Of a stretch of 64,000 nt of DNA, positions 911 to 33,737 are shown in pieces. Position numbers and translations under genes: made by a program. A model generated the notes under the pieces. That model saw only the letters and a list, made by a program, of their open reading frames with translations, was not told the origin of the DNA and did not search any database. The stretch comes from Candidatus Eiseniibacteriota bacterium (lineage in GTDB: Bacteria > Eisenbacteria > RBG-16-71-46), in NCBI GenBank assembly GCA_031364845.1, contig JANLWX010000231.1, forward strand, positions 23,531 through 87,530. Reading direction: 5' to 3'. The number at the start of each line of letters is the position of its first letter. Position 1 is the stretch's first letter.

Positions 911-987
911 TGGTGCGCCCGACAGGAATCGAACCTGTAACCTTTAGCTCCGGAGGCTAACGCTCTATCCAATTGAGCTACGGGCGC
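911..987 (-). tRNA. tRNA-Arg (anticodon CCG)
   Basis: Reverse complement reads GCGCCCG-TA-GCTC-AATTGGATA-GAGC-G-TTAGC-CTCCGGA-GCTAA-AGGTT-ACAGG-TTCGATT-CCTGT-CGGGCGC-A-CCA. The cloverleaf is complete, with 7-bp acceptor stem, TTCGATT T-loop and encoded CCA. Confidence 0.9.
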
Positions 988-13833: not shown

Positions 13834-15193
13834 CAGGTCCTCCGGATCGCACCGTCTCGATGCGGGCGTCGGCTTCTCCGCGCGCGAACTCGATCGTCAC
13901 GCGCTCACCCACGGTCAGCGTCTCGACGGTGCGCAGCACACTACCGTCGGCGCCCCGCGCCAGGCAATAGCCGCGCTCGAGCACGAGGCGCGGGGACAGC
14001 GCGCGCAGCTGGTCCACGCACGACGTCACCTGGCGACGGCGGTCGTGCAGTGCCCGGACCAGCGCCGGTGCCAGGGCGGCTTCGAGCTCGCGGGGTTCGT
14101 CGCTGAGCGCGGCCAGCGTGCGCGGCCACTCGCGCAGCGCGTAGCTCGCGGCGAGATGCTCGATCGACTGGCGGACGCTCCCCAGGCGGGAGCGCAGTGC
14201 GAAGCGCATGCGCAGCGTCGACTCGCCGACCGTCGTATGCCAGCCCTCGAACAGCTGCTGCAGGCGCTGGAAGCCGTATTTCTGCGTGAGGTGCATGAGC
14301 GCCTGGCGCCGCGATTCGAGCCGGCGTTCGAGCGCGCGACGGCTGCGCCACGTGAGGTGCCCGAGATCCTCGAGCAGTTTTACCCGCTCGCACACCACGA
14401 GCTCCGCGGCGTTGGACGGTGTGGCGGCCCGCACGTCGGCCGCGGCGTCGGCGAGCGTCCAGTCCACTTCGTGTCCGACCGCCGAGACGATCGGGATCGC
14501 GGAGCCCGCGATCGCACGCACCACGACTTCCTCGTTGAATGCCCACAGATCCTCGATCGAGCCGCCGCCGCGTCCGACAATCAGGACATCGACCGCCCCG
14601 TGGCGATTGAAACGCCGGATCGCATCGGCAATCTCGAGTGCGGCACCCGGTCCCTGCACGCGCACCGGCGCGAACACGACCGCGATGCCGGGCATGCGCC
14701 CGCGCAGCACCTTCACGATGTCGCGGATCGCGGCCCCGACCGGCGAAGTCACCACTCCGATCCGCCGCGGGTAGCGCGGCAGTGGACGCTTGCGCGCGGG
14801 ATCGAACAGGCCTTCGGCGGTGAGGCGCTGCTTCAGCTGTTCGAGCTGCAGCAGCAATGCTCCGAGGCCGGCCGGGCGCATCTGCTTGACGGAGAACTGG
14901 TAGTTGCCGCGCGGCTCGTAGACCGTGATGTCGCCGAACGCTTCGATCTCGAGGCCTTCCTTCGGCTCGAATCCGAGTCCGCTCGCGGTGCGCGACCACA
15001 TCACGCAGTCGAGTGCCGCGTCCTTGCCGTCCTTGAGCTTGAAGTAGAGATGCCCGCTGTCGGCGCGCTTGAAACCCGACAGCTCGCCCTTGACCCACAC
15101 GCCGGTGAATTGCTCGGCGAGCGCCTCCTTGATGGCGCGCGTCAGCTCGAGGACCGAAAGGACCCGGTCGTTCCCGGCCGGTGCGAGGCTCAT
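13823..15193 (-). CDS. xseA: exodeoxyribonuclease VII large subunit
   Basis: This is the 3' part of track ORF 13823..16708. I chose the internal ATG (MSLAPAGNDRVLSVLELTRAIKE...), which overlaps the ymdB-folD stop as ATGA. It has an OB-fold N-domain and the XseA catalytic region. Confidence 0.85.
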   Translation of the reverse strand: MSLAPAGNDRVLSVLELTRAIKEALAEQFTGVWVKGELSGFKRADSGHLYFKLKDGKDAALDCVMWSRTASGLGFEPKEGLEIEAFGDITVYEPRGNYQFSVKQMRPAGLGALLLQLEQLKQRLTAEGLFDPARKRPLPRYPRRIGVVTSPVGAAIRDIVKVLRGRMPGIAVVFAPVRVQGPGAALEIADAIRRFNRHGAVDVLIVGRGGGSIEDLWAFNEEVVVRAIAGSAIPIVSAVGHEVDWTLADAAADVRAATPSNAAELVVCERVKLLEDLGHLTWRSRRALERRLESRRQALMHLTQKYGFQRLQQLFEGWHTTVGESTLRMRFALRSRLGSVRQSIEHLAASYALREWPRTLAALSDEPRELEAALAPALVRALHDRRRQVTSCVDQLRALSPRLVLERGYCLARGADGSVLRTVETLTVGERVTIEFARGEADARIETVRSGGPDAR

Positions 15194-16887
15194 CGCGCGG
15201 CTTCTTCTCCGATGGTCTGGCGCGCGGCGGCGAGCACGAGGTTCGACACCACCATCGCCACCGTCATCGGACCCACACCACCCGGAACCGGCGTCAGCGC
15301 ACCCGCAACCTCGATCACCGACTCCGCGTGCACATCGCCGCAGAGTCGTGAGCCGCTGCGCTTTTCGGGAGCGGCGACGCGATGCACACCGACGTCGACG
15401 ACCGTCGCACCCGGCTTCACCCACTCGGCGGTGACCGCTTCGGGCCGGCCCATCGCGACCACCAGCAGATCCGCCTCGCGCGCGAGACGCTGGAGCGCGG
15501 GCCCGCTCGCGCTGTGACCGATCGTCACCGTCGCATCGACGCCTTTGGTCGAGAGCAGCGTCGCGACCGGGCGCCCGACGATCGAGCTGCGCCCCAACAC
15601 GACCGCGTGGGTGCCCGCGAGCGGCACCTGATGAAAGCGCAGCAGCTCGAGAATGCCGCGCGGTGTGCACGGCACGAGTGACGGAAGTCCGAGGCTCAGG
15701 CGTCCGGCGTTCACCGGATGGAAGCCATCGACATCCTTGCCCGGGGGGATTGCATCCAGCACTTCGTCCGCGCGCGCGGGGGCGGCCAGCGGAAGCTGGA
15801 CGAGGATGCCGTGAACGTCCGGGTCGTCGCCGAGCTGGCGCACTTTCGCGACCACGGTACGCGTGTCGGTGCCGGCGGGCAGCGAGATGCGGCGGACCTC
15901 GATGCCCGCTTCCTTGCATGCGTCGTCCTTCTTGCGCATGTAGATCTGGGAGGCCGGATCGTCCCCGACCGAGACCAGCGCCAGGCACGGTTCGACGCCC
16001 CCCGCGCGCAGGCGCGACACTTCGATCTGCGCCGCGTAGCGCACGCTCGCGGCCGGATCGTCGCCGCGCAGCAGCCGCGCCTGCCCGGCGGGCGTCGCGT
16101 CGGGCGTGTAGCGCATCTGGATGCGCTCGATCGAGTGCGCCTTGCCGGTCGCGGGATCGACGCGGACCACGGCGCCGTTCAGGCGCAGGTCGCCATCCGA
16201 CGGCGACAGCCGCTCGTTCATGAGCGTCGTGAAACGTCGCAGTGCCGCGACGCGGTCCATGCCGATCACCGAATCGAAGCCGCCCGTCATGCCGGCGTCG
16301 GTCAGGTACGCGGTGCCTTTGGGCAGCACGCGCTCGTCCGCTGTCTGCACGTGCGTATGCGTGCCGAACAGCGCGCTCACGCGGCCGTCGAGGTTCCAGC
16401 CCATGGCGACCTTCTCGGCGGTGGTCTCGGCGTGGAAATCGAGCACGATGATCTTCGCCTGATCGCGCAGCGCTTCGAGCGTGCGCTCGATCGAGGCGAA
16501 CGGCGAATCGATCTCCTTCATGAACACGCGGCCGAGCATGCTGATCACGGCGACCGGCGTGCCGTCCTGCGCGCGGAACACGCCAAAGCCCTGCCCCGGC
16601 GTCGTGGCCGGCATGTTGGCGGGCCGCACCAGTCGCGGTTCCTCGGCGAGATAACCGTGGCTCTCCTTCTTGTCCCACAGATGATTGCCGCCGGTGAGCA
16701 CATCGCATCCGGCCGCGAACAGTTCCGCCGCGCCGTCACGCGTGACACCGAACCCGCCCGCCGAGTTCTCGGCGTTGCAGATCACGAGACCGATTTCGTG
16801 GCGCCGGCGCAGCTCGGGCAGCAGCGCTTTCACCACCTTGCGGCCGGGTGAACCCACGACATCGGCGATGAACAGGATGTTGAGCAA
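15190..16887 (-). CDS. in-frame fusion of YmdB-like metallophosphoesterase (2',3'-cNMP phosphodiesterase family, TIGR00282) and bifunctional methylene-THF dehydrogenase/methenyl-THF cyclohydrolase FolD
   Basis: Track ORF 15190..17553 is continuous. The upstream part is Arg-rich junk. The likely start is the TTG at 16885-16887, preceded by AGGAGtccgg, giving MLNILFIADVVGSPG, which closely matches the B. subtilis YmdB N-terminus. The YmdB-like domain is ~265 aa and ends at ...GKAHSIERIQ. It continues without a stop into MRYTPDATPAGQARLLRGDDPAAS...LVSVGDDPASQIYMRKK...VDGFHPVNAGRL...PCTPRGI...TPVPGGVGPMTVA, which is FolD. Confidence 0.75.
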   Translation of the reverse strand: MLNILFIADVVGSPGRKVVKALLPELRRRHEIGLVICNAENSAGGFGVTRDGAAELFAAGCDVLTGGNHLWDKKESHGYLAEEPRLVRPANMPATTPGQGFGVFRAQDGTPVAVISMLGRVFMKEIDSPFASIERTLEALRDQAKIIVLDFHAETTAEKVAMGWNLDGRVSALFGTHTHVQTADERVLPKGTAYLTDAGMTGGFDSVIGMDRVAALRRFTTLMNERLSPSDGDLRLNGAVVRVDPATGKAHSIERIQMRYTPDATPAGQARLLRGDDPAASVRYAAQIEVSRLRAGGVEPCLALVSVGDDPASQIYMRKKDDACKEAGIEVRRISLPAGTDTRTVVAKVRQLGDDPDVHGILVQLPLAAPARADEVLDAIPPGKDVDGFHPVNAGRLSLGLPSLVPCTPRGILELLRFHQVPLAGTHAVVLGRSSIVGRPVATLLSTKGVDATVTIGHSASGPALQRLAREADLLVVAMGRPEAVTAEWVKPGATVVDVGVHRVAAPEKRSGSRLCGDVHAESVIEVAGALTPVPGGVGPMTVAMVVSNLVLAAARQTIGEEAAR

Positions 16888-16907: not shown

Positions 16908-18470
16908 CTACTTGGCGTAGTCGACCGCGCGCGTCTCGCGGATCACGGTGACGCGGATCTGGCCGGGATATTCGAGTTCCTTCTCGATGCGGCGCGCGAT
17001 GTCGCCCGCGAGGCCCTGCGCGCGGGCGTCGTCGACCTTGCTGTGCTCGACCATGATGCGCACTTCGCGGCCGGCCTGGATCGCATAGGACTTCTCGACG
17101 CCGGCGAACGCGTTGGCGATCTTCTCGAGCGCTTCGAGCCGCTTGATGTAGATCTCGAGGCTCTCGCGCCGCGCCCCCGGTCGCGCCCCGGACATCGCGT
17201 CGGCCGCCGACACCAGCACCGGCCACAGGCTGCCACCCGCGTAGTCGTCGTGGTGGTATCCGATCGCTTCCAGCACCGGTTGCGGTTCGCCGTAGCGCGT
17301 GGCGACTTCCATCCCGAGCGCGGGATGGCTGCCTTCGTGGTCGTGGTCGATCGCCTTGCCGATGTCGTGCATCAACCCCGCGCGCTTCGCGGTTTTCTGA
17401 TCCATGCCGATCTCCGCCGCCATCATGCCGGCGAGGTGCGCGACTTCGATCGAGTGGTTGAGGATGTTCTGCCCGTAGGAGGTGCGGTAGTGGAGCCGGC
17501 CGAGCAGGTAGACGAGTTCGGCGTGCATGCCGTGAACGCCGATCTCGAGGCACGCGGCCTCGCCGAACTCCCGGATCTTGCCTTCGACCTCGGTCTTCAC
17601 CTTGGCGACCACTTCCTCGATCCGCGCCGGATGGATGCGTCCGTCGGCGACCAGCCGCTCGAGCGCGATGCGCGCGATCTCGCGGCGAACCGGATCGAAG
17701 CCCGACAGGATCACGGCCTCGGGCGTGTCGTCGATGATCACGTCGATCCCGGTCACGATCTCGAACGAGCGGATGTTGCGGCCTTCGCGCCCGATGATGC
17801 GCCCCTTCATCTCGTCGCTCGGCAGGTGGACGACCGAGACCGAAGAGTCCGAGACGTGATCGGCGGCGTAACGCTGCATCGCGAGAACGATGATCTTGCG
17901 CGCCTCGCGTTCGCCGTTGCGCTGGGCGTTGTCGCGGATCTCGGTCGTGCGGCGCGCGGCCTCCGAGCGGGCTTCTGCCTCGATCGAGGAGATCAGCTGC
18001 AGTCGCGCGTCCTCGGCGGTGAGTCCGGCGATGCGCTCGAGCCGGCTGCGCTGCTCCTGGACCACCTGATCGAGTTCCTGCGTGCGCGAGGTGACCGCGG
18101 TTTCGCGCTGTGAGAGATCGTGCTCGGAACGTTTGAGATCGCGGTCCTTCTTCTCGATCACCTCGACGCGCCGGCTGAAGGCGACTTCCTTCTCCTGAAA
18201 CGCGCGCTCGGCCGCGAGCTGGTTGTTGCGTGCTTCGAGCATCTCGCGTTCGAGCTGCTGCTTGAGCCGCAGCGCCTCCTCGCGGCTCTCGAGCACGGCG
18301 TTGCGCTTGAGCGCCTCGGCCTCGCGCTGGGCCTCTTCGGTGAGCGAGACCGCGCGGCGTTCTGCGCCCAGCACCTGCGAGCGGCCGAGCTGGGCGCGAA
18401 GGAAGAAGCCGATCACAAACGACACGACGGCACCGAGGACGATGCCGCCGATCAGGGTCACGTCAGACAT
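16908..18470 (-). CDS. rny: ribonuclease Y
   Basis: Track ORF 520 aa with an N-terminal TM helix, coiled coil, KH domain ([13 protein letters not shown]) and HD domain ([15 protein letters not shown]...MHDIGK). The rny-ymdB adjacency matches that in Firmicutes. Confidence 0.9.
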
Positions 18471-18534
18471 TCATTCTCCCTGAGCATCCGCGTCCGGCGT
18501 TTGCGGCAACGCCGGGCGGCGGACGCCCGGGCAG

Positions 18535-18747
18535 GGAAAAATCCCCGCCAAATACCGTGTGCTTGTGGGGTTCTTGAGACCTGGCGAGCCAGGTGGGCGT
18601 CCCTACGACCGGGTCGGCACTCCCCGGATTCCGGCGCCATACCGAACGCGGAATGCCGGAGCACAACGTCGCCGGCCACCAGAACACCCAGAACGAAAGT
18701 ATTGGTTCAAGAACTCCGAGGCATCACGAGCACGGCAGGGAAAACGC
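18535..18747 (-). ncRNA. ssrS: candidate 6S RNA (ssrS)
   Basis: This ~210-nt transcript would lie on the minus strand in the 300-nt gap immediately downstream of zapA, which is the ssrS position in E. coli. The 5' UUUUCCCUGCC pairs with the 3' GGCGGGGAUUUUU as a closing stem. GUUCUUGA pairs with UCAAGAAC on either side of a large central unpaired region, and a GC-rich terminal stem (GGUGG...CCACC) follows. A UUGAACCAA segment resembling E. coli 6S is present. Confidence 0.5.
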
Positions 18748-18773
18748 TGCGGCCTCTGATTCCGTTCGCCGCC

Positions 18774-19085
18774 TTACTTTCCTGGCGCTCCTTCGAGCAC
18801 TTCGTCCAGGACGGCGGTGAGATGCGCCGTGCGCGTGCTGAGGTCGCGCAGATCGCGATCCTCGGTTTCGCGCCGTGCGCGCTCTTTGAACAGCTCGTCG
18901 GCAATATTGAGAGACGCGAGAATCGCCACTTTGGAGAGCGAGGCCACCGGCAGCTTTTCAGTGATCTCGCGCATCTTGCGGTCCACATACGCGGCGACCT
19001 CCAGGATGTACTCCTGGTTCGCTTCGCCGCGTATCGTGTACGAGTGGCCGAAGATCTCGACCTGAACGACGTTCTTGGCGAGCAT
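18774..19085 (-). CDS. zapA: cell division protein ZapA
   Basis: Track ORF 103 aa, MLAKNVVQVEIFGHSYTIRGEANQEYILEVAAYVDRKMREI..., matching the ZapA family pattern. Confidence 0.75.
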   Translation of the reverse strand: MLAKNVVQVEIFGHSYTIRGEANQEYILEVAAYVDRKMREITEKLPVASLSKVAILASLNIADELFKERARRETEDRDLRDLSTRTAHLTAVLDEVLEGAPGK

Positions 19086-19263
19086 GGCGCCTCCGTCTTT
19101 GCAGCATACTTCCCTGCGCTCTGATCCCGTTGAATTGAGGCCGCAGGCTGCTGAAAAACCCGATTGCTGCGTTGCTCGGTCGCTCCTCGCTTCGACGTAT
19201 CCTTCGGATACGCCTCGCTCGTCGCTTCCCTCGCGCCTTGCACTCGGCTTCTTCAGCAGCCTG

Positions 19264-19560
19264 CTAAGCTTCGAGCTTCTCGAGCTTCTTGAGCATCGAC
19301 TCGACGCGCGAAGCGACGTCTCGACGTTCGCTGTGCCAATCCTTCTGCTCGCGACGCAAGGTCCCGAGTTCCTGCAGCAGCGCCGCCACGTCCTGACCCT
19401 GAAGTCGCTGCTCCAATTCCGCGGACCGTTGCAAGAGCTCGTCGCGCTCCTGCGTGGCGCGCTGGGCTTCGTCGCGGAGCTTCTGTACCAGCTGGGCTGC
19501 CCTCTCGACCCGCTCGCTCAGCCGGTCGAGATCCGTCTGCATCAACGCGGTCTCGGTCAT
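19264..19560 (-). CDS. coiled-coil protein (ZapB-like cell division factor?)
   Basis: This is the 3' part of track ORF 19264..20049. The ATG at 19558-19560 overlaps the pheT stop as ATGA. The 98-aa product has pure heptad coiled-coil character (MTETALMQTDLDRLSERVERAAQLVQKLRDEAQRATQERDELLQRSAELEQRLQ...). Confidence 0.5.
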   Translation of the reverse strand: MTETALMQTDLDRLSERVERAAQLVQKLRDEAQRATQERDELLQRSAELEQRLQGQDVAALLQELGTLRREQKDWHSERRDVASRVESMLKKLEKLEA

Positions 19561-22013
19561 TTTTCTCTCAACTGGCCGCCACATTCCTTCGCGACGGCCA
19601 TCACCATGCGTTCCTGGATGGCCTGGACCTCGGGCTCCGTCATGGTCCGCTCGGGATGCATGAAGCGCAACGCGAACGCCATGCTCTTCATCTCGGTCGG
19701 AGTACCCGGGCCAGCGTACACGTCGAACAATTCGAGCGAGGCCAGCCGCTCTCCGGCGGCAACGGTCAGCGCGCGCTCGAGGTGCTGGTGCGTCACGCTC
19801 TCGGGCACGAAAAATGCGAGGTCGCGGCGCACCGGAGGAAAGCGACCGGGCATCGAGGCTCGGGGCGTGCGTTGCGCGGAGTGGATCAAAGGCTCGAGCA
19901 AGGCCACGAACACGTGAACCTGCGCGTCGATCTCCCACTCCTTGAGCAGCGTCTGGCCCAGAGTTCCCGCCCATCCAATGCGTGAAGCCGAGCTTGCAAC
20001 CTCCGCACTGGCATCGCGTTTCCAGCCGTCGCCAGAATAGGCTCGCCATTCAGGGGTGTCAACGCGCAACTCCTGGAGCCATGCCTCCCAGATTCCACGC
20101 GCATCGGCGAAGTCGACCGGCTGCTGCGAGGTGTCGTGCGCATGCGCATATCGGGGTCCGGTAAGGAGTGCCGCGATCATCAGCGTCTCGGCCGGCAGCG
20201 TGGCTTCGCCGTTCGCGGCGATGCGCGCACTCTCGTCCGTGTTCCACGCGAACCCGTGGCCGATCTCGAACAGCCGCACCGCTTCGACACCCTGCTTGAG
20301 ATTGTGCGCGCACGCGCGCAAGAGCCCGCCGAGCAGATTCGGCCGCAGCACTTCGTGCTCGCGGCTCATCGGATTGCGCAAGCGCACGAGTCGCGCGGGA
20401 TCGGCGCCGAGCACCGTGGCGGTGATCTGCGCCTCGCGTTCGGACAGCAGGCTGGTCGAGCACGCTTCGGTGAGTCCGCGCGCGAGCATCGCGGCGCGCG
20501 CGGCGGCGATCGTGCGCTCGCGCGCGGAGCGCACGGCGTAGGCGCCGCTGGTCTCGAGCGGCACATCGGGAATGCGGTCGTAGCCGTTGGAGCGCGCGAC
20601 CTCTTCGACCAGGTCGTCTTCAAGCGCCACGTCGATGCGCCATGGCGGCACCGTGACCGAGATCGGGTCTCCGGGCTTCACGCCGAACTCCAGCGCCTCG
20701 AGATGACGCGCGGCATCCGCTGCCGAAACCGGCATGCCGATCACGCGCGCGCAGCGCGAGGCGCGCAGCTCGAGCACGCGCGGCGCGCGCGCATCGACGT
20801 TGCGCTCGCACGCCGCCCCCGCCCTCATGCCCGGACACAACGTTGCGAGCAGTTCAAGGAAGCGCGCGACCGCGACCGCGCCGATCTCGGGATCGACACC
20901 GCGCTCGTAGCGCTTGGAGGCTTCGGTCGAAAGTCCGAGGCTGCGCGCGCCGCGCCGCACGCGCGTCGGTTCGAACCACGCGCACTCGAGCAGCAGCCGC
21001 GTGGTGGCGGCATGGACTTCGCTGTCGGCGCCGCCCATCACGCCCGCGACCGCGACCGCGGCGTCGCGATCGGCGATCACCAGCACTTCGGGATTCAGTT
21101 CGCGCTCCTTGCCGTCGAGCGTCACCAGCTTCTCTCCCGCGCGCGCGAGGCGCACGCGGATCGCGGGACCCTTCAGGCGATCGAGATCGAACGCGTGCAG
21201 CGGCTGGCCGAGCTCGAACAACACGAAGTTCGTGAGGTCGACGACGTTGTTGATCGGACGCTGGCCGATCGCTTCGAGCCGCTGGGCGAGCCACGCCGGC
21301 GAAGGGGCGATAGAGATGCCTTCGATCGCATGCGCGATATAGCGCGGACACCCGCGCGGTTCTTTGAGTTCGAGGTCGAACGGGCCCGCGGCACTGACCG
21401 CGCTCCAGCGGCGATCGAACCGCGCGCGGGCGCCTTCGGTCCAGCGTCCGCCGAAGGCGGCCTTCACCTCGCGCGCGAGACCCACGACGCCCATGCCGTC
21501 CGGACGGTTGAACGGGATCTCGACTTCGAGCACCGAGTCCGCCGGGCCGAACAGCTGTTCGGCCGGCCGCCCGGGCGTGAGATCGGCACCCGCGAACACA
21601 CGCTCGAGATCGACGATGCCGTCGTGGTCGTCGCTGATCTCCAGTTCGCGCGCCGAGCACAGCATGCCCTGGCTCTCCTCGCCGCGGATCTTGCTCTTCT
21701 TGATCACGAGCCCGCCCGGGAGCCTGGCTCCCACCGTCGCGAGCGGCACGACCATTCCCGCGCGCACGTTCGGCGCGCCGCACACGACGCGCAGTTCACC
21801 CGCGCCGCCGTCGACCTTGCACAGCGACAGTTTGTCGGCGTTCGGATGCTTCTGCACATCGAGGATGCGCGCGACCACCACACCGGTGAAGCTCGGACCG
21901 TGCACCTCGATGCCTTCGACATAGAACCCGCGGCGCGTGAGCGCTTCGGCGATGTCCTCGGCCGTGGCTTCGACTTCGATCCACTCGCGCAACCATGACA
22001 GCGACAGTTTCAT
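19557..22013 (-). CDS. pheT: phenylalanine--tRNA ligase beta subunit
   Basis: Track ORF 818 aa with N-terminal tRNA-binding domain (LDVQKHPNADKLSLCKVD), then B3/4, B5 and FDX-ACB domains. Confidence 0.95.
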   Translation of the reverse strand: MKLSLSWLREWIEVEATAEDIAEALTRRGFYVEGIEVHGPSFTGVVVARILDVQKHPNADKLSLCKVDGGAGELRVVCGAPNVRAGMVVPLATVGARLPGGLVIKKSKIRGEESQGMLCSARELEISDDHDGIVDLERVFAGADLTPGRPAEQLFGPADSVLEVEIPFNRPDGMGVVGLAREVKAAFGGRWTEGARARFDRRWSAVSAAGPFDLELKEPRGCPRYIAHAIEGISIAPSPAWLAQRLEAIGQRPINNVVDLTNFVLFELGQPLHAFDLDRLKGPAIRVRLARAGEKLVTLDGKERELNPEVLVIADRDAAVAVAGVMGGADSEVHAATTRLLLECAWFEPTRVRRGARSLGLSTEASKRYERGVDPEIGAVAVARFLELLATLCPGMRAGAACERNVDARAPRVLELRASRCARVIGMPVSAADAARHLEALEFGVKPGDPISVTVPPWRIDVALEDDLVEEVARSNGYDRIPDVPLETSGAYAVRSARERTIAAARAAMLARGLTEACSTSLLSEREAQITATVLGADPARLVRLRNPMSREHEVLRPNLLGGLLRACAHNLKQGVEAVRLFEIGHGFAWNTDESARIAANGEATLPAETLMIAALLTGPRYAHAHDTSQQPVDFADARGIWEAWLQELRVDTPEWRAYSGDGWKRDASAEVASSASRIGWAGTLGQTLLKEWEIDAQVHVFVALLEPLIHSAQRTPRASMPGRFPPVRRDLAFFVPESVTHQHLERALTVAAGERLASLELFDVYAGPGTPTEMKSMAFALRFMHPERTMTEPEVQAIQERMVMAVAKECGGQLREK

Positions 22014-33661: not shown

Positions 33662-33737
33662 TGGTGGGCGATACTGGACTTGAACCAGTGACCCCTTGCT
33701 TGTCGAGCAAGTGCTCTACCAACTGAGCTAATCGCCC
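33662..33737 (-). tRNA. tRNA-Val (anticodon GAC)
   Basis: Reverse complement reads GGGCGAT-TA-GCTC-AGTTGGTA-GAGC-A-CTTGC-TCGACAA-GCAAG-GGGTC-ACTGG-TTCAAGT-CCAGT-ATCGCCC-A-CCA. It lies 127 nt upstream of thrS. Confidence 0.9.

What the first reader, a model, noticed from the sequence alone, without database searches (positions are those of the whole stretch)
18535..18747. Probable 6S RNA (ssrS) in the zapA-rny intergenic region
The 300-nt gap downstream of zapA on the coding strand can fold into the 6S architecture. A closing stem forms between 5' UUUUCCCUGCC and 3' GGCGGGGAUUUUU. GUUCUUGA pairs with UCAAGAAC on either side of a large central unpaired region that mimics an open promoter, and a GC-rich terminal stem follows. 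The zapA-ssrS adjacency is the classical E. coli arrangement. The supplied plus-strand ORFs here (18559-18759, 18593-18820) are then non-coding.
Basis: partly seen in the sequence, partly recalled or inferred. Interest (0 to 1): 0.55.

Follow-up and report, generated by a model that had tools for sequence, protein, structure and literature searches.

The report
6S RNA gene between zapA and rny
The 300-base gap between the cell-division gene zapA and the RNase Y gene holds an ordinary 6S RNA gene, the widespread small RNA that mimics an open promoter to hold back RNA polymerase, here in a member of the uncultivated phylum Eisenbacteria.

Summary
The observation and the interpretation both hold. 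Rfam's 6S model (RF00013) matches window 18744..18538 on the minus strand over its full length, at 64.4 bits (gathering score 46.4, E 1.9e-10). The claimed pairings are present.

The window comes from a Candidatus Eisenbacteria genome. Of 46 related loci with enough upstream sequence, 43 carry the same element between zapA and rny, and 39 of those pass Rfam's gathering score.

On a structure-blind MAFFT alignment of 42 sequences, the Rfam-derived structure is 86.5% paired, against 36-48% when partners are slid. Fifteen pairs show compensatory changes, and 0 of 500 shuffles reach these values.

The 5' strand of the central bubble is 13-15 nt long, variable in sequence and 37% GC in a 64% GC RNA. 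The plus-strand ORFs are not conserved as coding.

The order zapB-like, zapA, 6S matches the known proteobacterial array. An Acidobacteriota locus also has zapA-6S-rny.

Expression, the transcript ends and RNA polymerase binding are untested.

Side observation: the rny leader is a conserved stem-loop that hides the ribosome-binding site. Its C-rich arm is also complementary to the 6S 3' arm.

Verdict: a new member of a known kind, of low to moderate interest.

The parts
18538..18744 (-). 6S RNA (ssrS) gene, 207 nt by the Rfam model boundaries. The true transcript ends are not determined.
   Evidence: RF00013, 64.4 bits against a gathering score of 46.4, model positions 1-187 of 187, E 1.9e-10. 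It is the only Rfam match in 18380-19300 at E<=1.
18726..18743 (-). Closing stem, 5' strand (UUUCCCUGCCGUGCUCGUG). CCCUGC is invariant in 42 sequences.
   Evidence: Structure projected from the Rfam alignment. Helices 1-2 are 84-93% paired with 6 compensatory pairs.
18540..18558 (-). Closing stem, 3' strand (CACACGGUAUUUGGCGGGGAUU). GGCGGGG is invariant.
18704..18714 (-). Internal helix, 5' strand GUUCUUGAACC, next to the bubble. Invariant or nearly so in all 42 sequences. By homology with E. coli it is the likely template region for product RNA (inferred).
   Evidence: (helix 3, 92.6% paired).
18690..18703 (-). Central bubble, 5' strand (AAUACUUUCGUUCU). Unpaired, AU-rich, variable sequence, constant length.
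   Evidence: Unpaired in the Rfam consensus and in the MFE fold. It is 13-15 nt long and 37% GC, against 64% for the whole RNA, across 42 sequences.
18595..18689 (-). Apical (terminal) stem-loop domain. GC-rich, with a distal insert of variable length (20-65 nt among relatives).
   Evidence: Helix 4 has 7 pairs with compensatory changes. RNAalifold agrees.
18580..18594 (-). Central bubble, 3' strand, with an invariant 5-bp hairpin CCUGG-loop-CCAGG. Its last GG overlaps the ACC:GGU pairs of the internal helix, so the two pairings are mutually exclusive.
   Evidence: (pairs 187-202 to 191-198 kept in 41-42 of 42 sequences, loop variable).
18570..18581 (-). Internal helix, 3' strand GGUCUCAAGAAC.
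18471..18537 (-). rny leader: one stem-loop whose basal stem pairs a C-tract (UCCCUGCC, 18530-18537) with the rny Shine-Dalgarno zone (CAGGGAGA, 18475-18482). The C-tract is also complementary to the 6S 3' arm.
   Evidence: 42 of 42 leaders fold this way. Median z is -3.1, and cognate arms pair better than non-cognate ones (12 of 2000 permutations). The precursor fold swaps partners.
18774..19085 (-). zapA, ending 29 nt upstream of the 6S 5' end.
   Evidence: Pfam PF05164, 80.1 bits. It lies upstream of 6S in the relatives.
16908..18470 (-). rny (RNase Y), starting 67 nt downstream of the 6S 3' end.
   Evidence: Pfam RNase_Y_N 164.8 bits, plus KH and HD domains.
19264..19566 (-). zapB-like coiled-coil ORF upstream of zapA. 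Its start overlaps the end of pheT.
   Evidence: Weak ZapB match, 20.4 bits, below the cut-off of 31.5. It is conserved in position and sequence across the relatives.

Best explanation
Window 18744..18538 (minus strand) encodes the 6S RNA (ssrS) of a Candidatus Eisenbacteria bacterium. The ~207-nt RNA folds into a long interrupted rod: a closing stem, an internal helix, a large central bubble with an AU-rich single-stranded 5' strand, and a GC-rich apical stem. By homology with the E. coli and B. subtilis 6S RNAs, the bubble mimics an open promoter. The RNA would occupy the active site of the housekeeping sigma factor's RNA polymerase holoenzyme and so dampen transcription when nutrients are scarce. 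When nucleotides return, the polymerase would use the 5' bubble strand and the adjoining GUUCUUGAACC strand as a template for a short product RNA. That unwinds the internal helix, lets the 3' bubble strand rearrange and releases the enzyme. The gene lies in a co-directional cluster: pheS, pheT, zapB-like, zapA, 6S, rny, ymdB-folD. It is most likely transcribed with its neighbours and cut out of a longer precursor, as in E. coli. Shown here: homology to the 6S family, the fold, covariation, conservation and synteny. Inferred: expression, transcript ends, co-transcription and processing, polymerase binding and product-RNA synthesis.
For: There is a full-length RF00013 hit, 64.4 bits against a gathering score of 46.4, E 1.9e-10, and it is the only family matching the region at E<=1. 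The same element lies between zapA and rny in 43 of 46 assessable Eisenbacteria loci: 41 by single-sequence nhmmer, plus L035 and L037 by profile nhmmer. Rfam reaches the gathering score in 39 of them (17, L010 and L035, 20 of 20). The Rfam consensus structure was projected onto a structure-blind MAFFT alignment of 42 sequences that are 63-79% identical to the window. There, 86.5% of cells are paired against 36-48% for slid partners, 15 pairs have compensatory changes, and 0 of 500 shuffles reach any of the five measures. RNAalifold independently recovers the closing stem, the apical stem and the 3' bubble hairpin, with 14 compensatory pairs. The 5' bubble strand has a constant length of 13-15 nt, a variable sequence and 37% GC in a 64% GC RNA and a 66.6% GC window. 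The minus-strand fold is -99.1 kcal/mol, z -3.8. The flanks are ZapA and RNase Y. The zapA-ssrS adjacency is seen in E. coli K-12 and is described as a conserved ZapB-ZapA-SsrS array in beta- and gamma-proteobacteria (PMC7641849). An Acidobacteriota locus (L063) also has zapA-6S-rny, at 80.2 bits. A small 3' bubble hairpin in the free RNA is known for B. subtilis 6S-1 (PMC8876501).
Against: There are no expression data, so a discrete abundant ~200-nt RNA is not shown. No sigma-70-consensus promoter and no intrinsic terminator were found around the element. Nothing promoter-like is conserved in the 20-60 nt between the zapA stop and the 6S 5' end, so the ends rest on model boundaries alone. Three Eisenbacteria lineages (L022, L033, L045) lack it at this locus, so it is not indispensable at this position. 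Folded as a 286-nt precursor that includes the rny leader, the minimum-energy structure breaks the outer closing stem in favour of other partners. Only 64 kb of the genome was available, so a second 6S gene elsewhere cannot be excluded.
Confidence: 0.92

Rival explanations
1. The 300-nt region is only a long structured 5' leader of the rny mRNA (a cis-regulatory element) that happens to resemble 6S. It is never released as a separate RNA and does not bind RNA polymerase.
For: There is no room for a promoter between the element and rny (67 nt, filled by a stem-loop). No terminator follows the element. The leader C-tract and the rny SD zone are complementary to the 6S arms, and the precursor fold mixes them. 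B. subtilis rny is regulated through its 5' UTR (PMC10303841).
Against: The match to the 6S model is full-length and 18 bits above the curated threshold, in about 40 genomes. The 6S-specific features are conserved: a constant-length AU-rich 5' bubble strand, an invariant template-side helix strand and a 3' bubble hairpin. In E. coli, 6S is likewise co-transcribed with the downstream gene and then processed (PMC7641849, citing Chae 2011 and Kim & Lee 2004). L022, L033 and L045 keep the short leader without the 6S part, so the two are separable modules. None of the 19 Bdellovibrionota/Ureibacillus rny loci scanned at the gathering score has such an element.
Confidence: 0.04
2. It is a decaying or secondary 6S paralogue, and the functional 6S RNA of this organism is encoded elsewhere.
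For: Some bacteria have two 6S genes (B. subtilis 6S-1 and 6S-2; PMC10578484). Three related lineages have lost the element at this locus. Only 64 kb of the genome could be examined.
Against: There is strong purifying selection with compensatory changes across 42 sequences that are only 63-79% identical. It sits in the ancestral zapA-linked position. There is no second hit in the window by Rfam or by profile nhmmer at E<=10.
Confidence: 0.03
3. The region encodes one of the plus-strand ORFs (18559-18759 or 18593-18820), and the RNA fold is incidental to high GC content.
For: ORFs of 66 and 75 codons exist. The plus strand also folds well, z -2.75.
Against: Neither ORF has a Pfam match. In this 67% GC DNA, stop-free runs of 50-79 codons occur in nearly every frame of every homologue. 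Element lengths are spread over all residues mod 3 (20/12/10), and tblastn matches break into separate pieces in several loci. Substitutions preserve base pairs, which protein-coding constraint would not explain.
Confidence: 0.01

Closest known systems
E. coli 6S RNA (ssrS) in the zapA-ssrS-fau locus
   Same: Both match the same Rfam family with a full-length alignment. Both have a closing stem, a central bubble and an apical stem. In both, zapA lies immediately upstream on the same strand with a short gap (41 nt in E. coli, 29 nt here). In both, a co-directional gene follows closely without an intervening terminator.
   Different: The downstream gene is rny, not the folate enzyme fau. The RNA is about 207 nt against 183 nt, with a larger GC-rich apical domain of variable length. 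The 3' bubble strand carries a pre-formed invariant 5-bp hairpin. E. coli has no downstream complement of the 3' arm.
ZapB-ZapA-SsrS-(FAU1)-EVE gene array of beta- and gamma-proteobacteria (PMC7641849)
   Same: The order zapB-like, zapA, 6S on one strand is conserved throughout the lineage.
   Different: It is found here in Eisenbacteria and in one Acidobacteriota genome, outside the Proteobacteria. The downstream partners are RNase Y and a YmdB-FolD fusion, not FAU1 and EVE. The zapB-like ORF scores below Pfam's ZapB threshold.
B. subtilis 6S-1 RNA (bsrA)
   Same: A small hairpin is already formed in the 3' strand of the central bubble of the free RNA (PMC8876501). The organism has RNase Y and not RNase E as the candidate processing or decay endonuclease (PMC10578484).
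   Different: The genomic context is different. No specific role of RNase Y in 6S metabolism could be shown in B. subtilis. Here the two genes are adjacent.
B. subtilis rny 5' UTR autoregulation (PMC10303841)
   Same: Both are leaders upstream of rny that are candidate sites for control of RNase Y synthesis.
   Different: The Bacillus mechanism is cleavage of the 5' UTR and early ORF by RNase Y. Here the conserved feature is a GC-rich stem-loop that hides the ribosome-binding site next to a 6S gene. No homology was tested or is claimed.

Membership tests
6S / SsrS RNA (Rfam RF00013) | Covariance-model score at or above the curated gathering score, over the full model | tested here: met
   64.4 bits against 46.4, model 1-187 of 187, E 1.9e-10. 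39 related loci also pass.
6S / SsrS RNA (Rfam RF00013) | Long interrupted double-stranded rod: closing stem plus apical stem, supported by covariation | tested here: met
   86.5% of cells are paired on a structure-blind alignment, against 36-48% when slid. 15 pairs have compensatory changes, and 0 of 500 shuffles reach the observed values. RNAalifold agrees.
6S / SsrS RNA (Rfam RF00013) | Large central bubble with a single-stranded 5' strand (open-promoter mimic) | tested here: met
   The 14-nt 5' strand is unpaired in the Rfam consensus and in the MFE fold. It is 13-15 nt in all 42 sequences, 37% GC and variable in sequence.
6S / SsrS RNA (Rfam RF00013) | Size of about 180-210 nt as a discrete stable transcript | not testable with these tools
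   The predicted length is 207 nt (184-232 among relatives). No RNA data were available, and no promoter or terminator was identified.
6S / SsrS RNA (Rfam RF00013) | Binds the housekeeping-sigma RNA polymerase holoenzyme | not testable with these tools
   This needs gel-shift or co-immunoprecipitation experiments.
6S / SsrS RNA (Rfam RF00013) | Templates short product RNAs from the 5' bubble strand, leading to release | not testable with these tools
   The evidence is indirect only. The template-side strand GUUCUUGAACC is invariant while its pairing partner varies more. The position homologous to E. coli U44 is a U in the window, by my reading of the alignment.
ZapB-ZapA-SsrS gene array | 6S gene immediately downstream of zapA on the same strand, with zapB upstream | tested here: met
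   ZapA scores 80 bits in Pfam and the gap is 29 nt. The order is conserved in relatives. The zapB assignment is weak, at 20.4 bits against a cut-off of 31.5.
Ribosome-binding-site-sequestering leader hairpin (for the rny leader, side observation) | Conserved stable stem-loop whose 3' basal strand contains the Shine-Dalgarno sequence | tested here: met
   42 of 42 leaders fold this way. Median z is -3.1, and 34 of 42 fall below -2. This is prediction only.
Ribosome-binding-site-sequestering leader hairpin (for the rny leader, side observation) | Demonstrated effect on translation, or a switch between alternative pairings | not testable with these tools
   The alternative pairings are nearly equal in energy, -15.7 to -17.8 kcal/mol. 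There is no functional test.

The most novel reading that the evidence does not exclude
The 6S gene and the RNase Y gene form one regulatory unit. Two C-tracts (the 6S 5' arm and the rny leader) and two G-tracts (the 6S 3' arm and the rny ribosome-binding site) can pair interchangeably. How the zapA-6S-rny precursor folds or is cut would then decide whether the RNase Y ribosome-binding site is exposed. RNase Y itself might release 6S from its own mRNA, coupling the level of the global transcription brake to that of the main decay-initiating nuclease.
Probability: 0.1. Interest if true: 0.5.

Novelty: new member of a known kind. Interest (0 to 1): 0.25.

Why it matters
It gives the intergenic region a correct annotation and removes two spurious ORFs. 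It shows that a candidate phylum known only from metagenomes carries a canonical 6S RNA. It also extends the zapB-zapA-6S linkage, described for beta- and gamma-proteobacteria, to Eisenbacteria and at least one Acidobacteriota genome, which suggests that the linkage is old or has been selected repeatedly. The tight 6S-rny juxtaposition, with a leader complementary to the 6S arm, offers a concrete and testable case of possible coupling between 6S biogenesis and RNase Y expression. None of this changes what is understood about 6S RNA itself.

Tried and rejected
(1) The sigma-70 promoter and intrinsic terminator scan of 18300-19400 found no promoter. The two terminator-like sites lie inside rny and are at chance level.

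(2) Aligning the 90 nt upstream of the 6S 5' end in 40 loci showed only zapA coding conservation and no shared promoter motif.

A profile HMM with nhmmer was used instead.

(4) Plus-strand coding was rejected.

(5) A general 6S-rny linkage was rejected. None of the 19 distant rny loci scanned at the gathering score (Bdellovibrionota and Ureibacillus) has a 6S nearby.

(6) The E. coli ssrS downstream region was checked for a complement of the 3' arm, and none was found. In L063 it is only weak.

(7) The 13-nt inverted-repeat arm at 19143/19252 was searched across the window in case it marked a dispersed repeat. Only its own two arms match exactly, and the 2-mismatch hits are at chance level.

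(8) Literature: no paper holds both 'Eisenbacteria' and '6S RNA'. Barrick et al. 2005 is not held, so its statements on genomic context could not be checked.

(9) The cognate versus non-cognate duplex test for the leader gave only a small effect (about 1 kcal/mol, 12 of 2000 permutations) and does not control for phylogeny. It is treated as weak support.

Full report
**What is there.** A scan of the whole window against Rfam 15 at curated thresholds gives three hits: two tRNAs and one 6S/SsrS RNA (RF00013). The 6S hit is at 18744..18538 on the minus strand, at 64.4 bits against a gathering score of 46.4, E 1.9e-10, and covers model positions 1-187 of 187. A permissive scan of 18380-19300 (E up to 1) finds no other family. 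The flanking minus-strand ORFs are ZapA (18774-19085, Pfam 80.1 bits) and RNase Y (16908-18470; RNase_Y_N 164.8 bits plus KH and HD domains). The gap between them is 303 nt. Further upstream lie a weak ZapB-like ORF, pheT and pheS.

On the minus strand the RNA begins UUUUCCCUGCCGUG and ends GGCGGGGAUUUU. CCCUGCC pairs with GGCGGGG (one G-U pair) and the preceding U pairs with A; the outer U residues face each other and do not pair. GUUCUUGAACC pairs with GGU(C)UCAAGAAC. Between this helix and the GC-rich apical stem lie a 14-nt 5' strand (AAUACUUUCGUUCU) and a 13-nt 3' strand. The fold is -99.1 kcal/mol, z = -3.8 against dinucleotide shuffles. The opposite strand folds less well, at -85.4 kcal/mol, z -2.75.

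**Origin and relatives.** A search of one genome per species for relatives of the adjacent RNase Y returned 74 loci. Forty-eight are at 72-87% protein identity, almost all labelled Candidatus Eisenbacteria. The rest are at 41-57% (Bdellovibrionota, one Ureibacillus, one Thermoanaerobaculia and others). The window therefore comes from an Eisenbacteria genome. Single-sequence nhmmer finds the element just upstream of rny in 41 loci, and a profile HMM adds L035 and L037.

Rfam results for these loci are as follows.

| Scan | Result |
|---|---|
| (gathering, 20 loci) | 17 reach the gathering score |
| (gathering, 20 more loci) | 20 of 20 reach it |
| (permissive filters) | L010 68.2 bits (lost to speed filters), L035 57.6 bits |
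|, below the cut-off | L037 45.3 bits, L015 39.8 bits |

That makes 39 related loci above the curated score. Two loci lack enough upstream sequence to judge. L022, L033 and L045 have only 150-180 nt between zapA and rny and no 6S signal there. Overall, 43 of 46 assessable loci carry the element.

**Covariation.** I aligned the window and 41 homologues with MAFFT, which uses no structural information. The homologues are 63-79% identical to the window and 184-232 nt long. RNAalifold on this alignment recovers the closing stem, the apical stem and a small hairpin in the 3' bubble strand, with 14 pairs showing compensatory changes. For a test that does not derive the structure from these sequences, I took the Rfam consensus structure as aligned to the window and projected it onto the MAFFT columns. 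It contains 44 pairs:
- 86.5% of cells form standard pairs, against 36-48% when the 3' partners are slid by 1-3 columns.
- 15 pairs have changes on both sides, against a shuffle mean of 7.9.
- 0 of 500 shuffles reach the observed value on any of the five measures.

The apical stem carries most of the compensatory changes. The closing stem core and the internal helix are invariant, which neither supports nor contradicts pairing there.

**Bubble features.**
- The 5' strand of the bubble is 13-15 nt in every sequence and varies in sequence. It averages 37% GC in an RNA of 64% GC and a window of 66.6% GC.
- The 3' strand always contains CCUGG, a loop of 4-6 variable bases, then CCAGG. The last two G residues of that hairpin are the ones that pair with ACC in the Rfam consensus, so the two pairings exclude each other.
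- A small hairpin in the 3' bubble strand of the free RNA is described for B. subtilis 6S-1. Rearrangement of this region on product-RNA synthesis is part of the known release mechanism (PMC8876501).
- The 5' strand GUUCUUGAACC is invariant or nearly so in all 42 sequences, while its partner varies more. This would fit an extra constraint such as serving as the product-RNA template. In the Rfam alignment the position homologous to the E. coli start site, U44, is also a U here. That is my reading and is an inference.

**The plus-strand ORFs.** Neither has a Pfam match. In this GC-rich DNA, stop-free runs of 50-79 codons occur in almost every frame of every homologue, so an open frame means little. 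Element lengths fall in all three residue classes mod 3 (20/12/10), and tblastn matches to the ORF translations break into separate pieces in several loci. The conservation is at the RNA level.

**Context.** E. coli K-12 has zapA, a 41-nt gap, ssrS, a 75-nt gap, then fau. A published survey describes ZapB-ZapA-SsrS-(FAU1)-EVE as a conserved array in beta- and gamma-proteobacteria, with the SsrS-FAU1 transcript processed into mature 6S (PMC7641849). Here the order zapB-like, zapA, 6S is conserved throughout the Eisenbacteria loci. The Thermoanaerobaculia locus L063 also has zapA, 6S (80.2 bits) and rny. None of the 19 other distant rny loci scanned at the gathering score has a 6S nearby. So the link is zapA-6S, with rny as a lineage-specific downstream neighbour. 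No paper in the searchable library mentions Eisenbacteria together with 6S RNA.

**How it is probably made.** No sigma-70-consensus promoter and no intrinsic terminator flank the element. The 20-60 nt between the zapA stop and the 6S 5' end are unconserved. The 46-98 nt between 6S and rny are filled by a stem-loop. The simplest reading is co-transcription with zapA and rny, followed by processing, as in E. coli. This is inferred, and the promoter rules of this phylum are unknown.

**Side observation: the rny leader.** Immediately after the 6S 3' arm (GGCGGGGA, 18549-18542) and a short U-rich loop comes UCCCUGCC (18537-18530). This is nearly a copy of the 6S 5' arm. It is followed by a GC-rich hairpin of unrelated sequence and variable length, then a G-rich Shine-Dalgarno zone (CAGGGAGA, 18482-18475) and the rny ATG.
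- All 42 leaders, folded alone, form one stem-loop whose base pairs the C-tract with the Shine-Dalgarno zone.
- Median z is -3.1, and 34 of 42 leaders fall below -2.
- Cognate arms pair about 1 kcal/mol better than non-cognate ones (12 of 2000 permutations; phylogeny is not controlled).
- The four tracts are mutually complementary at nearly equal energies, -15.7 to -17.8 kcal/mol.
- The 286-nt precursor's minimum-energy fold swaps partners. The 6S 3' arm pairs with the leader C-tract, and the 6S 5' end pairs with the Shine-Dalgarno zone.
- The three loci without 6S keep the C-tract and hairpin. The leader's own role, most likely masking the ribosome-binding site, therefore does not depend on 6S.

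Whether the cross-complementarity is used as a switch is open. B. subtilis RNase Y autoregulates through its own 5' UTR (PMC10303841). In B. subtilis no specific RNase Y role in 6S decay could be shown, though one was not excluded (PMC10578484).

**Verdict.** This is a 6S RNA gene. It is a new member of a well-known family, detectable by standard annotation, in a phylum where it has not been discussed. Interest is low to moderate. The only part that goes beyond routine is the possible coupling to RNase Y expression, which I rate as unlikely but testable.

Noticed in passing
window 18471-18537 (minus strand); the same position in 41 loci: The rny leader is a conserved stem-loop that buries the Shine-Dalgarno zone. 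Its C-tract (UCCCUGCC) nearly copies the 6S 5' arm and can also form a hairpin with the 6S 3' arm. All four tracts pair with similar energies, and the precursor MFE fold swaps partners.
   Followed up: partly
L022 ~2827-2980, L033 ~2763-2944, L045 ~2277-2427: Three divergent Eisenbacteria lineages have only 150-180 nt between zapA and rny and no detectable 6S there, yet they retain the C-tract-plus-hairpin leader. Their 6S gene, if any, must lie elsewhere.
   Followed up: partly
L063 2723-2909 (Thermoanaerobaculia, Acidobacteriota): The same zapA-6S-rny order occurs outside the phylum, with an 80.2-bit Rfam 6S hit. This suggests the arrangement is wider than Eisenbacteria. None of the 19 Bdellovibrionota/Ureibacillus rny loci scanned has a 6S nearby.
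   Followed up: partly
window 15190-16887 (minus strand): Directly downstream of rny, a single ORF joins a YmdB-like phosphoesterase (PF13277, residues 9-260) in frame to a complete FolD (residues 277-561). One tblastn match spans the junction in about 40 Eisenbacteria loci, so the fusion is conserved. A folate enzyme near 6S recalls the ssrS-fau pairing of E. coli.
   Followed up: partly
window 19143-19264 (minus strand): A 122-nt long hairpin (basal inverted repeat GCAGGCUGCUGAAGAA..., 9-bp apical stem, z = -6.1) fills the spacer between the zapB-like stop and zapA. Relatives have different GC-rich hairpins in a spacer of 20-161 nt. The repeat arm occurs nowhere else in the window.
   Followed up: partly
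window ~19086-19118 (minus strand), just upstream of the zapA start: A motif CGCAGGGAA...GCGGCGA(A/G)GCG recurs just upstream of zapA in many related loci, although the rest of the spacer is unconserved.
   Followed up: no
window 19264-19566 (minus strand): The ORF upstream of zapA matches Pfam ZapB only weakly (20.4 bits against a cut-off of 31.5). It is conserved in position and sequence (44-74% identity) across relatives, and its start overlaps the end of pheT by 10 nt.
   Followed up: partly
L010 1942-2128: Technical point: this locus scores 68.2 bits for 6S with permissive filters but was missed in the default gathering-threshold scan of 20 loci. A negative default scan is therefore not proof of absence.
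   Followed up: yes
window 914-987 and 33665-33737 (minus strand): Two tRNA genes were found by Rfam, at 73.9 and 70.8 bits.
   Followed up: no
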